The notes below the pieces were generated by a model that saw only the letters and a list, made by a program, of their open reading frames with translations, had not been told where the DNA came from and made no database searches. A DNA stretch of 64,000 nt from a virus, in the IMG/VR virus record IMGVR_UViG_3300043409_001462, positions 109,385 to 173,384 of that record; one strand, 5' to 3'. Position 1 is the first letter of the stretch; each line of letters starts with the position of its first letter. Positions 322 through 5,619 of the stretch are shown piece after piece. Made by a program: the position numbers and the translations under genes.

Positions 322-415
322 TAGGTGATGAGTTGTAGGTAAACCTGAATGCGCTAGGGAACCTTCCTAACTGTTGAGTGATGATGTCGTCACGCACTAG
401 TTACTCAACAGTCCA
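322..415 (+). ncRNA. Candidate structured small RNA within the tRNA array, ending in CCA
   Basis: Two short hairpins, then a 12-bp stem 370-381/401-412 followed directly by CCA; not a cloverleaf. Confidence 0.35.
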
Positions 416-420
416 GTTTC

Positions 421-672: not shown

Positions 673-1278
673 ATGCAAAATGAAGTGATAAGTCTTTTCC
701 CAACAGCTGTTATGAAGTCTACATTGGACAGAAAACTTTCAAGAAAAGAAGTTAATTTTGTAAAGAAGAATTTTAAAAATATTAGAAGCAATTTGCAAAA
801 CAGTACTAGTTGTGATAATTATATTTTAGAAAACCAAGAATTTGTTTCTTTGAAAGAGTTTATTGAAACACAGTTAGATGTATATTACAGAAAAGTATTA
901 AATGTTGATACAAGCTCAAAGATCTACATTACACAATCATGGTTGAATTATTCTAAGCCAGGTGAATCACATCATCCACATACACATACTAATAGTTTTT
1001 TGAGTGGCGTATTCTACATTAGCACAAATGAAAATGATAGAATTTTCTTTAGAAAACAAAAAGAATTTATACATATACCACCAACTGTTTGTAATGTTTG
1101 GAATTCTGATTTGTGGGCATTGTCAGCTGTAGAAGGATATCTTTATATTTTTCCTTCAAACCTTGAGCATTATGTGGAAAAAATAACAGGTAGTAAAACA
1201 AGAATTAGTTTGAGTTTCAATTCATTCATATCTGGAAAAATTGGAGCTCCTGATTTCTTATCAGAATTAAAGATATAA
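673..1278 (+). CDS. 2OG-Fe(II) oxygenase (TIGR02466-like)
   Basis: SWLN...HHPHTH...SGVFY...IFPSNLEH...RISLSFN motif set. Confidence 0.85.
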   Translation: MQNEVISLFPTAVMKSTLDRKLSRKEVNFVKKNFKNIRSNLQNSTSCDNYILENQEFVSLKEFIETQLDVYYRKVLNVDTSSKIYITQSWLNYSKPGESHHPHTHTNSFLSGVFYISTNENDRIFFRKQKEFIHIPPTVCNVWNSDLWALSAVEGYLYIFPSNLEHYVEKITGSKTRISLSFNSFISGKIGAPDFLSELKI

Positions 1279-1357: not shown

Positions 1358-1432
1358 GGTGCCTGAGTAGGACGGTAATGCGCAGGTCTGCAAAACCTTG
1401 AGAACCCAGTTCAACTCTGGGAGGCACCTCCA
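1358..1432 (+). tRNA. tRNA-Cys(GCA)
   Basis: Loop CTGCAAA, U73, CCA. Confidence 0.92.
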
Positions 1433-2277: not shown

Positions 2278-2391
2278 TAGGTTGTGTTCAGCATACAATG
2301 GATGAACCAGTCGGTCGGGTGTTCGAGTCACCCCAGGAGCTCCTTGCTTCTGTAGCTCAGTGGTAGAGCAACTGCCAAAAAGTACAACCTG
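2278..2391 (+). ncRNA. Array unit 1: YrlA-type Y-RNA-like RNA with circularly permuted tRNA domain
   Basis: Terminal stem TAGGTTGTG/TACAACCTG; inside, T arm (2317-2333), closed acceptor stem (2334-2352), D arm (2355-2369), anticodon-stem halves CAGT/ACTG. Confidence 0.85.
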
Positions 2392-2404: not shown

Positions 2405-2433
2405 TTGACTTATCCGTAGATAAAGCGTATTAT
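2405..2433 (+). promoter_or_regulatory. Sigma70-type promoter for array units 2-6 and the DUF2828 gene
   Basis: TTGACT-17-TATTAT, with the AGTGC upstream of -35 also seen at 13471 and 14548. Confidence 0.75.
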
Positions 2434-2449
2434 ATGTGTATTGAGTTTG

Positions 2450-2585
2450 AGATTGACCGTTCAGCAAACAGCTTTTGATCAAGCTAGTAGCCCCTGGGCT
2501 ACGTATAGACTGGCTTTATACCTGGTCTCCAGTGGTTGTTTCTTCGGGCGTCCACTATAAAAAAATGAAATAAGAAGTCAATCTG
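2450..2585 (+). ncRNA. Array unit 2: Y-RNA-like unit with multi-hairpin payload
   Basis: Stem AGATTGAC/GTCAATCT, GTTCAGCA motif, four internal hairpins. Confidence 0.7.
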
Positions 2586-2593
2586 TTGAGTTT

Positions 2594-2684
2594 TAGGAAG
2601 CATTCGGCAAACAATTATTGATTGGTTCAACTCCAATACCAGCGGTTCACGCTAGTACGCCTCGTGTGGGGCAACTGCTTCCTG
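2594..2684 (+). ncRNA. Array unit 3: Y-RNA-like unit with minimal permuted tRNA (T arm-acceptor-D arm)
   Basis: Stem AGGAAGCA/TGCTTCCT, TTCGGCA motif, T arm ATTGG-TTCAACT-CCAAT, 7-bp acceptor-like hairpin, D-like hairpin. Confidence 0.75.
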
Positions 2685-2692
2685 TTGAGTTC

Positions 2693-2752
2693 TAGGATTG
2701 TTACAGCATAAATGCACTTGATTTGTAATCAAACCCGCAAAGGGCAATCCTG
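2693..2752 (+). ncRNA. Array unit 4: Y-RNA-like unit with tRNA-Thr(UGU) anticodon arm
   Basis: Stem AGGATTGT/GCAATCCT, TACAGCA motif, TTGA-TTTGTAA-TCAA hairpin. Confidence 0.75.
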
Positions 2753-2760
2753 TTGAGTTT

Positions 2761-2814
2761 TAGGGTCAGTTCCGCATCTAAAATGATTGCATATATCAAA
2801 CCAAGATGACCCTG
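2761..2814 (+). ncRNA. Array unit 5: Y-RNA-like unit with 7-nt-loop hairpin
   Basis: Stem AGGGTCA/TGACCCT, GTTCCGCA motif, TGAT-TGCATAT-ATCA hairpin. Confidence 0.7.
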
Positions 2815-2821
2815 TTGAGTT

Positions 2822-2876
2822 TAGATTCAGTTCCGCAACCAATCAAATCGACTTGAAATCGACCAAAGTGAATCTG
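2822..2876 (+). ncRNA. Array unit 6: Y-RNA-like unit with Ser(UGA)-type anticodon arm
   Basis: Stem AGATTCA/TGAATCT, GTTCCGCA motif, TCGA-CTTGAAA-TCGA hairpin. Confidence 0.75.
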
Positions 2877-2896: not shown

Positions 2897-4327
2897 ATGA
2901 ATACCTTTGTAAATGCCGTTGTTAATCAGGAAGCTCGTACCGAAAATGGTATGAAGGCTCGCCAGTCTACTGCTAATGCATTGACTGATCTGTTCTTCAA
3001 GATCGGTGCTATGCGTGGTCAGAATGTAATTCCTGCTTGGACTGCTGCTCGTGCTCATGATACTTTGCTTGCATCTCGTATCGCTCTTTGGGCACGTGAT
3101 GTTCGTGGTGGTGCTGGTGAACGTAAAATCTTCCGTGACATTTTAGTTGATCTTGCTTCAGCTGATCCTCATCGTGGTGTGGCTCTTGGTCGTAAGATTC
3201 CAGAGCTTGGTCGTTGGGATGACTTCCTTGTGTTCGTTGGTACCCCTCTTGAGGAGTATGCGTTCGAAACTATCCGCGAAGCTCTCGAAGCTGGTAATGG
3301 TCTCTGTGCAAAGTGGATGCCTCGTCAAGGTGAAACAGCTGTAAAGCTTCGTAAGTACCTTGGTTGGACTCCTAAGTTCTACCGAAAGCGTCTGGTTGAA
3401 TTGACCAAGGTTGTCGAAACTCAGATGTGCGCTAAGGACTGGGATAACATCAACTTCAACCATGTTCCTTCGGTTGCTTCTTCTCGTTACAAGAAGGCAT
3501 TCGCTCGTCATACTGACAAGTACAAGGAATGGACTGCGGCTCTTGTTTCTACTGATCCAGAGGTGGCTAAGTCTGTTAAGGTCAATGCTGGTGCGGTTTA
3601 TCCTTACGATGTGTTGAAGGGTGTGATTAATCATTATGGGCGTTATGATCAATCTAACTTGAATCATATCCTTGCTCAGTGGGAAGCTTTGCCTAACTTC
3701 GTTGGTAATGCTAACATTCTTCCGCTTGTTGACGTTTCTGGTTCAATGACTTCGAAGGCTGGTGGTTATCAGTCAAAGTCAGAAGTAACCTGCCTTGATG
3801 TTGCAGTTTCTCTTGGTCTGTATCTCGCAGACAAAAACAAGGGTAAGTTCAAGGATACTTTCTTGACCTTCTCTAGCGATCCTCAGCTGCTTCATCTTCG
3901 CGGTAACATCCTCGATAAGGTAAAGCAGATGGTATCTTCAAAGTGGGAAATGAACACCAATTTGCATCGTGCGTTGGATAAGATCCTTCGCACCGCGATT
4001 GAAGGTAACGTTCCTCAGTCAGAAATGCCAGGTGCATTGTTGATCCTTTCTGATATGCAGTTTGATTCTTGCACTCGTCACGATGACTCTGCTATGGAAA
4101 TGATTAAGCGTAAGTATGTTGATGCTGGTTACAATGTACCTAACATTGTGTTCTGGAATCTCAATGCTCACGACAATGTTCCTGTCAAGTATGACACTCG
4201 TGGTGCTGCTCTTGTTTCTGGTTTCTCACCTTCTATCGTTAAGGCTGTTCTGCAGGCTGAGATGGATAACTTTACGCCAGAAGCTATCATGATGCAAACC
4301 ATTATGAACCCACGATATGACTACTAA
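2897..4327 (+). CDS. DUF2828-family protein with C-terminal vWA domain (putatively Ro60/TROVE-like)
   Basis: ARDVRGGAGER, GRWDD, AKWMPR, MIDAS DVSGSM, LSDMQFD, IVFWNL, VSGFS motifs; GGAGA RBS; strong highly-expressed codon bias. Confidence 0.8.
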   Translation: MNTFVNAVVNQEARTENGMKARQSTANALTDLFFKIGAMRGQNVIPAWTAARAHDTLLASRIALWARDVRGGAGERKIFRDILVDLASADPHRGVALGRKIPELGRWDDFLVFVGTPLEEYAFETIREALEAGNGLCAKWMPRQGETAVKLRKYLGWTPKFYRKRLVELTKVVETQMCAKDWDNINFNHVPSVASSRYKKAFARHTDKYKEWTAALVSTDPEVAKSVKVNAGAVYPYDVLKGVINHYGRYDQSNLNHILAQWEALPNFVGNANILPLVDVSGSMTSKAGGYQSKSEVTCLDVAVSLGLYLADKNKGKFKDTFLTFSSDPQLLHLRGNILDKVKQMVSSKWEMNTNLHRALDKILRTAIEGNVPQSEMPGALLILSDMQFDSCTRHDDSAMEMIKRKYVDAGYNVPNIVFWNLNAHDNVPVKYDTRGAALVSGFSPSIVKAVLQAEMDNFTPEAIMMQTIMNPRYDY

Positions 4328-4396
4328 GGAAAAGCTTATAGTATTCCTTATGCTAATGTGGATGCCCATTGTTGTGATGGGCATCCTATTCTTCAC

Positions 4397-4472
4397 GCTG
4401 CAATAGCTCAGTTGGTAGAGCACTTGATTAGTAATCAAGATGTCGCGAGTTCGATCCTTGCTTGCAGCACCA
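4397..4472 (+). tRNA. tRNA-Thr(AGT)
   Basis: Perfect cloverleaf, stem CTTGA/TCAAG, loop TTAGTAA, CCA. Confidence 0.9.
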
Positions 4473-4864: not shown

Positions 4865-4975
4865 ATGTACAAAATATACACGCTAGTGATTGATAACATT
4901 ACCAAATTAGTTTGGTTAGCATTAATGACCTATTGGTTATCCGATGGTGTCAAGATAACGTCGCTATTCAAATGA
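4865..4975 (+). CDS. 36-aa hydrophobic peptide (not in ORF track)
   Basis: GGAGA RBS, MYKIYTLVIDNITKLVWLALMTYWLSDGVKITSLFK, ATGA overlap with the next start. Confidence 0.5.
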   Translation: MYKIYTLVIDNITKLVWLALMTYWLSDGVKITSLFK

Positions 4976-5619
4976 AGAAATTAGCTCTCTTCAATCATCA
5001 CCCTGAATGTTCTAATCAGTGTTGTATGGGTATGATGAGAGCTTTAGAACCACATTATAAAGTCAAGTGGTTTGATGTTCGTTCCAATCTAGACGAGGTG
5101 CTTGATAATGTGGATGGGTTACTTTTTCCTGGTGGCATTGGCGATAGTGATTCCTATTTCGATTTCTTTACACGTTCTAAAGCTAACAAAATCGCATCGT
5201 TTATTGCTAGAGGCGGTCGGTATATCGGCATTTGTATGGGTGCTTATTGGGCTGGGTCTAGATATTTTGACATTCTTGACAATGTAGATGCGGTTCAGTA
5301 TATTAAAAGACCAACAGCTGAGATACGCCGAAGCTATGGCACGGTTGCTGATATCGAATGGCTTGGTCAAAAAGAAAAGATGTTCTTCTATGATGGCTGT
5401 ACCTTTGTTGGACCAGGTCGCTATGATACTATTGCCAAGTATGCCAACGATGAACCAATGGCGATCATTCAAGGCAACATAGGTATTATTGGTTGCCACC
5501 CTGAGAGCGAAGAGTTTTGGTTCGAAGATCCTTATCAATATATCAACAAACACTGGCATAAAGGTAAGCATCATCAGTTACTACTAGAATTCGTAAATAA
5601 GTTATGGAGAGTTGGCTGA
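4972..5619 (+). CDS. BPL_N-like class I glutamine amidotransferase domain protein
   Basis: FPGG, YIGICMGAY nucleophile elbow, GCHPE; ATG at 4972 preferred over 4912. Confidence 0.8.
   Translation: MKKLALFNHHPECSNQCCMGMMRALEPHYKVKWFDVRSNLDEVLDNVDGLLFPGGIGDSDSYFDFFTRSKANKIASFIARGGRYIGICMGAYWAGSRYFDILDNVDAVQYIKRPTAEIRRSYGTVADIEWLGQKEKMFFYDGCTFVGPGRYDTIAKYANDEPMAIIQGNIGIIGCHPESEEFWFEDPYQYINKHWHKGKHHQLLLEFVNKLWRVG

What the first reader, a model, noticed from the sequence alone, without database searches (positions are those of the whole stretch)
2693..2876. Units 4-6 present isolated anticodon stem-loops, one copied from the phage's own tRNA-Thr
Seen: unit 4 contains GCACTTGATTTGTAATCAA (2714-2732), 18/19 identical to GCACTTGATTAGTAATCAA (4420-4438) of tRNA-Thr(AGT). 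The only difference is wobble base 34 (UGU versus AGU). Unit 6 has TCGA-CTTGAAA-TCGA, a canonical CU-NNN-AA loop with anticodon UGA (Ser). Unit 5 has a 4-bp stem with a 7-nt loop TGCATAT (CAU in the anticodon position, but non-canonical flanks, so ambiguous). Inference: anticodon-arm decoys or sensors for anticodon nucleases (PrrC/RloC/VapC/colicin-like) or tRNA-modifying enzymes, held on a protein scaffold. The payload may be acquired from tRNA genes.
Basis: partly seen in the sequence, partly recalled or inferred. Interest (0 to 1): 0.85.

Follow-up and report, generated by a model that had tools for sequence, protein, structure and literature searches.

The report
Phage RNAs displaying bare anticodon arms
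A freshwater phage carries, in front of a gene for a Ro60-like RNA-binding ring protein, small RNA genes whose only cargo is the anticodon hairpin of a tRNA; related phages keep this design and swap the anticodon, so these RNAs are probably baits for host enzymes that read or cut tRNA anticodons.

Summary
The sequences are as reported. Units 4-6 end a six-unit array upstream of a DUF2828 gene whose model matches only Ro60 structures. In 403 related loci, 76 of 169 distinct short cargos hold a canonical anticodon stem-loop (shuffles 4.6±2.2), only 7-nt loops are enriched, and stems covary around fixed loops. Loops are real tRNA loops (A34 in 1 of 51), led by Thr(UGU) and Ser(UGA), and one stem recurs with several anticodons. 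'Copied from the phage's own tRNA-Thr(AGU)' is not supported: the 19-mer is letter-identical to 22 other viral tRNA-Thr(UGU) genes, and cargos resemble their own phage's tRNAs no more than others (p=0.26). Unit 5 is not canonical (G33; homolog loops 7-10 nt). Best model (about 45%): Ro-like-protein-borne baits for tRNA-cutting defence nucleases; rivals are modification enzymes, RNA decay tethering and a leader sensor. Expression, binding and function are untested. I found no paper or Rfam family for these RNAs. The scan noted this array system before in about 20 other genomes, and similar anticodon display in canonical Ro60 loci.

The parts
2693..2752 (+). Unit 4: handle stem (2693-2700 with 2745-2752), CAGCA box 2704-2708, Thr(UGU) anticodon stem-loop 2718-2732 (loop 2722-2728), small 3-bp hairpin 2734-2744
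   Evidence: exact 19-mer in 22 viral tRNA-Thr(UGU) genes; orthologues carry Thr, Lys(UUU) or Lys(CUU) loops on the same stem
2761..2814 (+). Unit 5: handle stem, CCGCA box 2772-2776, weak 4-bp hairpin 2784-2798 with a non-canonical 7-nt loop (G33, CAU). The family keeps a YGCAU core in loops of 7-10 nt
2822..2876 (+). Unit 6 (last unit, ends 20 nt before the start codon): handle stem, CCGCA box 2833-2837, Ser(UGA) anticodon stem-loop 2848-2862 (loop 2852-2858)
   Evidence: (13 distinct arms; paired 0.69 vs 0.45 when 3' strands are permuted, 0 of 5000)
2278..2391 (+). Unit 1: same handle around a circularly permuted tRNA body (T arm, capped acceptor, D arm), YrlA-like
   Evidence: Rfam RF02553 39.1 bits, E 4e-6, below gathering 69; fold z -2.75
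2449..2585 (+). Unit 2: same handle, multi-hairpin cargo with no clear tRNA part
2594..2684 (+). Unit 3: same handle, T-arm-containing cargo
2405..2433 (+). Sigma-70-like promoter match (10 of 12) between units 1 and 2; could drive units 2-6 and the protein gene
   Evidence: consensus match only, count not above shuffles, but a similar TTGAC element recurs at this place in relatives
2897..4327 (+). 476-aa DUF2828 + DUF7788 protein (PHROG 850), predicted Ro60/TROVE-like ring with vWA domain and MIDAS-type DxSxS motif (residues 279-283)
4397..4472 (+). tRNA-Thr(AGU), the claimed donor; its arm is a common Thr arm with A34 and varies freely within the phage clade
421..496 (+). The phage's true tRNA-Thr(UGU): arm only 12/17 identical to unit 4, with a U31.U39 mismatch and C38

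Best explanation
Units 4 and 6 (unit 5 as a detuned relative) are small Y-RNA-like RNAs: a fixed handle plus a bare anticodon stem-loop as cargo. Steps: (1) the array is transcribed with the protein gene and the units fold as closed stems (inferred from position, promoter match and stem covariation); (2) the Ro60-like ring binds the handle (inferred from fold and co-occurrence, not shown); (3) the cargo is an anticodon-arm mimic kept by selection, retuned by point changes in the triplet rather than re-copied from tRNA genes (shown by comparative data); (4) the particle offers host-type Thr(UGU), Ser(UGA), Lys and Arg arms as baits to host enzymes that read the anticodon loop, most likely tRNA-cutting anti-phage nucleases, tying them up while the phage's own altered tRNAs keep translating (inferred). 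Steps 1-3 together about 0.8; the whole model with nucleases as the target about 0.45.
For: 76/169 distinct short cargos have a canonical arm vs 4.6±2.2 in dinucleotide shuffles; 7-nt loops 118 vs 35 while other loop sizes are near null. Stems covary around fixed loops (Thr 0.90 vs 0.61; unit-6 family 0.69 vs 0.45). 15/22 distinct loops are common natural tRNA loops (null 0.12), A34 occurs in 1/51, and nine stems recur with 2-5 anticodons. UGU+UGA make 16/50 cluster-level cases vs 5.5% of nearby phage tRNAs. tRNA-Thr(UGU) is the main target of P2-OLD (PMC12445682), a prime target of PARIS AriB (PMC12409363) and a secondary target of HepS (PMC13043305); Ser(UGA) is a mycobacterial VapC target (PMC10264068). 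Unit 4 carries the AriB site U36AAUCA, as E. coli thrU and lysT do; the site is in 8/24 cargos vs 16/151 phage tRNAs. The phage's own tRNA-Lys(UUU) has the U36AAACC form reported as AriB-resistant in T5 (PMC12409363). PrrC binds and cleaves isolated arms (PMC1950546). The protein model matches only Ro60 structures at E<1e-3.
Against: No expression, binding or activity data. Cargo stems lack OLD's CNG pseudo-palindrome (1/38 vs 112/247). AriB also needs a D-loop contact, and its cleavage site alone did not make a hybrid tRNA cleavable (PMC12409363). In the OLD study, extra host tRNA-Thr gave little protection and rescue was by resistance, not competition (PMC12445682). Several classic targets are absent among canonical short cargos (CAU, GUG, ACG, CCA). 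Stems are weak (25% GC vs 59%), and units 5 and 6 do not fold as predicted in isolation. The AriB, A31-U39 and anticodon-bias tests were post hoc and the sequences are related.
Confidence: 0.45

Rival explanations
1. The arms are baits or docking sites for anticodon-loop modification enzymes (t6A37 TsaBDE, i6A37 MiaA, TruA, RluA, CmoAB). They sequester these enzymes or recruit them to the phage's tRNA cluster transcripts and so reshape decoding.
For: 40/50 cluster-level anticodons end in U or A (t6A/i6A classes) vs 58% of phage tRNAs, p 7e-4; U34-G35 is enriched (21/50 vs 12%); A31-U39 is in 32/38 vs 83/247; A37-A38 in 36/38. YrlA is modified by tRNA enzymes (PMC4201824). That MiaA accepts minihelices is from my own knowledge.
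Against: The same biases follow from nuclease preferences or shared ancestry of the units. Several of these enzymes need the whole tRNA (own knowledge). No benefit to the phage is evident.
Confidence: 0.2
2. General Ro60-type tether: each unit ties the ring to an RNA decay or repair machine (PNPase-like), and the anticodon arm is one of several interchangeable tRNA-derived modules used to clear or protect damaged tRNA.
For: Fold identity with Ro60; phiLo Ro60 with Yrl1/2 binds and dampens PNPase (PMC12135203); Rsr-Yrl genes lie in an RNA repair operon induced by cleaved tRNAs (PMC7790460); the array also holds YrlA-like units.
Against: It does not explain why the loop must be a real anticodon loop. 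No RtcB or Rnl2-type ligase was found in this genome (the Rnl1 search was uninformative).
Confidence: 0.15
3. Cis-acting sensor in the leader of the protein gene: cleavage or binding of the arm in the last unit changes expression of the Ro-like gene (compare the tRNA-Thr-mimicking operator of E. coli thrS, own knowledge).
For: The last unit ends 10-30 nt before the start codon in 129 of 246 loci, as unit 6 does here.
Against: Arms also occur in units far upstream and downstream of the gene (42 loci have downstream units), and the anticodon of the last unit changes freely between clades.
Confidence: 0.1
4. The arms bind the ribosome or aminoacyl-tRNA synthetases (codon-reading or synthetase-titrating mimics).
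For: Loops are decoding-type, mostly U34, and avoid A34. ThrRS and LysRS read anticodons (own knowledge).
Against: SerRS ignores the anticodon (own knowledge), yet the Ser(UGA) loop is conserved. There is no acceptor end, and a ring-bound 4-bp arm is unlikely to fit a decoding site.
Confidence: 0.07
5. Non-functional remnants of tRNA genes, recently copied from the phage's own tRNAs.
For: The 18/19 match to the own tRNA-Thr(AGU); the array lies inside a tRNA cluster.
Against: Compensatory stem changes around invariant loops; own-versus-other tRNA test p 0.26 and 0.21; unit 4 stays fixed while the AGU tRNA arm varies; own tRNA-Ser(UGA) arm is 11/17 to unit 6.
Confidence: 0.03

Closest known systems
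Bacterial and phage Ro60 (Rsr) with Y RNAs YrlA/YrlB (Rfam RF02553; Chen et al. 2014, PMC4201824; Hughes et al. 2020, PMC7790460)
   Same: Several small RNAs encoded next to a Ro60-fold protein, a terminal stem with a short conserved motif, tRNA-derived cargo. Unit 1 has the YrlA layout. Hughes et al. already suggested that YrlA might competitively inhibit an anticodon nuclease.
   Different: The protein is DUF2828/DUF7788 (11-16% identity to Ro60, no TROVE Pfam hit). The motif is C(A/C)GCA, not GNCGAAN0-1G. YrlA shows the T/D elbow and has no anticodon arm, whereas units 4 and 6 show only the anticodon arm, with a variable anticodon.
Thermus phage phiLo Ro60 with Yrl1/Yrl2 (PMC12135203; PDB 9kop, 9l5y)
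   Same: Phage-encoded ring protein with upstream partner RNAs; best structural match of the model (E 4.6e-9).
   Different: CGAA motif, no anticodon cargo reported in the part I read, acts on PNPase; canonical Ro60 branch.
Phage tRNAs that evade anticodon nucleases (van den Berg 2023, PMC10264068; PARIS, PMC12409363; OLD, PMC12445682)
   Same: Same conflict and the same isoacceptors (Thr-UGU, Lys-UUU, Asn-GUU, Ser).
   Different: Those are full, chargeable, cleavage-resistant tRNAs that replace host tRNA. These are unchargeable arms that keep the host-type loop.
Dictyostelid Class I RNAs (Rfam RF01414; Kjellin et al. 2021, PMC7919456)
   Same: About 60 nt, short terminal stem, ends AAG...CUGU, an unpaired 11-nt motif next to the 5' strand with conserved C6, C9, A10, A11, variable interior. 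Here 358/423 units start TAG/AAG and 351/423 end CTGT (partly imposed by my parser).
   Different: The Rfam model does not hit the array. The conserved T falls at motif position 4 rather than 3. No anticodon cargo or Ro-like partner is reported for Class I RNAs.

Membership tests
tRNA anticodon stem-loop (units 4 and 6) | 7-nt loop with Y32, U33, R37 | tested here: met
   Loops UUUGUAA and CUUGAAA are the commonest loops of natural Thr(UGU) and Ser(UGA) tRNAs in the pool
tRNA anticodon stem-loop (units 4 and 6) | 5-bp stem | tested here: inconclusive
   Only 4 bp here; many homologs have 5; covariation supports pairing; unit 6 folds otherwise in ViennaRNA
tRNA anticodon stem-loop (unit 5) | U33 and R37 in a fixed 7-nt loop across homologs | tested here: not met
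   G33; orthologous loops 7-10 nt around YGCAU; a few read YU-CAU-A or the Ala(UGC) loop
Copy of the phage's own tRNA arm | Closer to own tRNAs than to tRNAs of other phages | tested here: not met
   p 0.26 (17-mer) and 0.21 (stem) over 58 cases; 19/19 match to 22 other viral tRNA-Thr(UGU) genes
Y RNA / YrlA (RF02553) | Encoded on the same strand within 4 kb of a Ro60 orthologue | tested here: inconclusive
   Adjacent gene is Ro60-like by fold but not by Pfam or PDB sequence search
Y RNA / YrlA (RF02553) | GNCGAAN0-1G motif near the 5' end | tested here: not met
   Motif is T(A/T)C(A/C)GCA(A)
Y RNA / YrlA (RF02553) | T and D arms in permuted order; Rfam gathering score | tested here: not met
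   Absent in units 4-6; unit 1 scores 39 of 69 bits; no YrlA hit at gathering in 8 other loci
Y RNA / YrlA (RF02553) | Stem joining 5' and 3' ends | tested here: met
   839 units on the gene strand vs 116 on the other; first G to box C is 9 nt in 395/423
Y RNA / YrlA (RF02553) | Bound and stabilised by the Ro protein in cells | not testable with these tools
Ro60/TROVE proteins | Helical ring closed by a vWA domain with MIDAS motif | tested here: met
   Model pLDDT 81.9; all 13 Foldseek hits at E<1e-3 are Ro60, TM 0.39-0.59; D279, S281, S283 invariant
Ro60/TROVE proteins | TROVE Pfam domain / sequence similarity to Ro60 | tested here: not met
   Only DUF2828 and DUF7788; no Ro60 hit by phmmer
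Dictyostelid Class I RNA (RF01414) | Match to the covariance model | tested here: not met
   No hit on the array even at E<=10
Anticodon-nuclease decoy | Binds or inhibits the nuclease and protects host tRNA | not testable with these tools
   Sequence proxies are mixed: AriB site enriched, OLD motif depleted

The most novel reading that the evidence does not exclude
A widespread phage ribonucleoprotein in which an orphan Ro60-like ring carries a reprogrammable library of bare anticodon arms. Each is tuned by point changes to the tRNA that a host defence nuclease attacks, and it works as an RNA decoy, a counter-defence distinct from resistant phage tRNAs and from tRNA repair.
Probability: 0.4. 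Interest if true: 0.88.

Novelty: new variant of a known kind. Interest (0 to 1): 0.7.

Why it matters
tRNA cleavage is now known as a common anti-phage strategy, and the described phage answers I found are resistant tRNAs and repair ligases. A protein-borne decoy arm would be a third route. It would test directly the idea, floated for YrlA, that tRNA-mimicking Y RNAs inhibit anticodon nucleases. The catalogue of displayed anticodons (Thr-UGU, Ser-UGA, Lys, Arg-UCU, Cys, Ser-GCU, Phe, Asn, Tyr) would predict which tRNAs undiscovered host enzymes attack. It would also give a role to a protein family found in 711 annotated phage records and nearly 8,000 protein clusters. Even if the decoy idea fails, these are uncatalogued, naturally minimal anticodon-arm RNAs.

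Tried and rejected
Copying from the own tRNA-Thr(AGU): rejected; one-way or reverse gene conversion inside this small clade cannot be excluded, since U32 and this arm co-occur in some relatives. Unit 5 as a true Met/Ile(CAU) arm: not supported; an Ala(UGC) register fits only two clusters. Rfam: no family for units 2-6; Class I RNA model negative. phmmer against PDB gave no significant hit. RNA ligases in the own genome: RtcB and Rnl2 not found, Rnl1 search uninformative. Bacterial chromosomes: the protein was rare in the samples (one extra genome among 150 and one among 400; one search drew an overlapping sample); I had no handle for Bacillota. Units were not found by my parser beside the gene in Vibrio phi-pp2, Felixounavirus, Serratia BF, mycobacteriophage L or Staphylococcus loci; the parser is strict and missed visible units in Bacillus, Enterococcus and Campylobacter phages. 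One review (PMC10870794) was not held. No complex prediction was run: the tool does not score RNA partners. Eight literature searches found no description of these RNAs.

Full report
Setting. The window is the last 64 kb of a 173-kb virus record with T4-like replication genes and at least 29 tRNA genes. Between tRNA-Leu(UAG) and a 476-aa ORF (2897-4327) lie six units with one layout: a 5' strand, a short link, a C(A/C/G)GCA box, a variable cargo, and a complementary 3' strand ending CTG. The ORF is DUF2828 + DUF7788, PHROG 850. Its AlphaFold model (pLDDT 82) matches only Ro60 structures at E<1e-3, best the Thermus phage phiLo Ro60. Unit 1 gives a weak YrlA hit; units 2-6 match nothing in Rfam.

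Observation. Unit 4 has a 4-bp stem and the loop UU-UGU-AA, unit 6 a 4-bp stem and CU-UGA-AA, unit 5 a 4-bp stem and UG-CAU-AU. ViennaRNA supports the unit-4 hairpin but prefers other folds for units 5 and 6, also with the box held unpaired. Sequence alone therefore does not settle units 5 and 6.

Homolog test. I fetched about 400 loci of the protein (82 clusters at 80% identity) and parsed units with a script. It found 839 units on the gene strand and 116 on the other. Among 169 distinct cargos of up to 50 nt, 76 contain a stem of at least 4 bp closing YU-NNN-RH, against 4.6±2.2 in dinucleotide shuffles. Loops of 7 nt occur in 118 cargos against 35 expected, while other loop sizes are near the null. 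With sequences anchored on the loop only, Thr-loop stems pair at 0.90 against 0.61 after permuting 3' strands, and unit-6 orthologues at 0.69 against 0.45 (0 of 5000 each). Fifteen of 22 distinct loops are common natural tRNA loops (null 0.12), and A34 occurs once in 51 cases (the composition null there is generous). The cargos are therefore anticodon-arm mimics under selection. These counts are not phylogenetically independent, but the gap to the null is large. Arms also occur in distant or cultured phages: Lys in Synechococcus phage BUCT-ZZ01, an Ile(GAU) arm read by eye in Campylobacter phage F357, Asn in L454.

Origin of the cargo. The unit-4 19-mer is letter-identical to 22 ARAGORN-called tRNA-Thr(UGU) genes of other viruses (some near-duplicates), so it needs no wobble change and no local donor. 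Within the clade the tRNA-Thr(AGU) arm takes six forms while unit 4 keeps its stem, and Thr units occur in 35 loci of 10 clusters, only 11 with an AGU tRNA in the fetched DNA. Over 58 cases, cargos are no closer to their own phage's tRNAs than to other phages' (p 0.26 and 0.21). The own tRNA-Ser(UGA) arm is 11/17 to unit 6. Cargo stems are 25% GC against 59% in tRNAs, only 2 of 43 equal a tRNA arm in the pool, and nine stems recur with two to five anticodons. Longer cargos show the likely route: acceptor-less tRNAs, arm plus T-arm, permuted YrlA-like bodies, then bare arms. So the ancestry is tRNA, but diversification is by point changes on an old scaffold (inference).

Unit 5. Its orthologues keep a YGCAU core in loops of 7-10 nt. 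About half fit a 7-nt YG-CAU-like register with G33, a few have YU-CAU-A, and two clusters read as Ala(UGC). It may be a detuned CAU arm (about 50%), but it is not a canonical one.

Mechanism. The displayed set is narrow: UGU and UGA make 16 of 50 cluster-level cases against 5.5% of nearby phage tRNAs; 40 of 50 end in U or A; A31-U39 is in 32 of 38 (post hoc). tRNA-Thr(UGU) is the main target of P2-OLD (PMC12445682), a prime target of PARIS AriB (PMC12409363) and a secondary target of HepS (PMC13043305); Ser(UGA) is cut by mycobacterial VapCs (PMC10264068). Unit 4 keeps the AriB site U36AAUCA found in E. coli thrU and lysT, enriched in cargos (8/24 vs 16/151). This phage's real tRNA-Thr(UGU) breaks that site, and its tRNA-Lys(UUU) has the form reported as resistant in T5. 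PrrC works on isolated arms (PMC1950546). This fits baits held on a ring protein. Against it: the OLD motif is depleted (1/38 vs 112/247), AriB needs the D-loop, surplus substrate did not protect against OLD, and the same biases fit modification enzymes. I put nuclease decoy at 0.45, modification enzymes at 0.2, decay or repair tether at 0.15, leader sensor at 0.1, ribosome or synthetase at 0.07.

Comparison with what is known. It works like Rsr with its Y RNAs but fails YrlA membership on motif, layout and Rfam score, and the protein fails the TROVE sequence test while passing on fold. Hughes et al. proposed YrlA as a possible competitive inhibitor of an anticodon nuclease (PMC7790460), yet YrlA lacks the arm shown here. 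The handle resembles dictyostelid Class I RNAs (PMC7919456), a lead taken from earlier scan notes, but the Rfam model does not hit. Eight literature searches found no description; subscription papers are largely outside the library. The scan has noted this array system in about 20 other genomes, and anticodon display in canonical Ro60 loci; those notes are not independent evidence.

Verdict. A real feature: bare, reprogrammable anticodon arms on an uncatalogued Y-RNA-like scaffold. The donor claim is wrong, unit 5 stays ambiguous, and the decoy role is a testable hypothesis. New variant of a known kind; interest 0.7.

Noticed in passing
window 4397-4472: tRNA-Thr with A34 (AGU), rare in bacteria. 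Among my loci it is confined to one phage clade, with six different arms, which suggests selection on the A34 anticodon itself.
   Followed up: partly
window 322-420: Unannotated structured RNA between tRNA-Ala and tRNA-Thr. Its stem uses the 9-mer CTGTTGAGT (371) paired with 403-411; the same 9-mer spans the unit junctions at 2583, 2682, 2750 and 2812, so 403-411 is also complementary to them.
   Followed up: no
window 1358-1429 and 581-655: A tRNA-Cys(GCA)-like gene missed by ARAGORN but found by Rfam; tRNA-Asp(GUC) has an unusual loop with U37 and D arm and scores poorly.
   Followed up: no
genome C1 about 108400-108940, just upstream of the window: ORF-free stretches among the tRNA genes with long terminal stems, one starting with a T-arm like a tmRNA or tRNA-like domain; a tRNA with UCA anticodon is called at 109305-109382.
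   Followed up: no
window 2774-2790 and 2706-2715: In units 4 and 5 a UGC in the cargo can pair with the GCA of the box, and several unit-5 orthologues share this; a possible switch between box-free and box-paired forms.
   Followed up: partly
L023, L035, L238, L338, L355, L467 and others: A recurrent A32 variant of the loop (AU-UGA-AA, AU-GCA-AA, AU-GGA-AA) and a poly-U/poly-A stem family with Pro(UGG)-like loops, also in Listeria phage LMTA-57.
   Followed up: partly
L438 5850-7061; L097 819-2078; L458 upstream of 3001: RNA ligase genes lie close to the DUF2828 gene in Listeria phage LMTA-57 and Serratia phage BF, and the ORF before it in a Subdoligranulum element looks RtcB-like by eye, linking the family to RNA repair in other lineages.
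   Followed up: no
window 673-1278, 1611-2207, 4972-5619: 2OG-Fe(II) oxygenase, methyltransferase (Methyltransf_24) and BPL_N/glutamine amidotransferase genes are interleaved with the tRNA cluster; a role in RNA modification was not tested.
   Followed up: no
window 4360-4386: Strong 12-bp hairpin after the DUF2828 gene, terminator-like or a processing site before tRNA-Thr(AGU).
   Followed up: no
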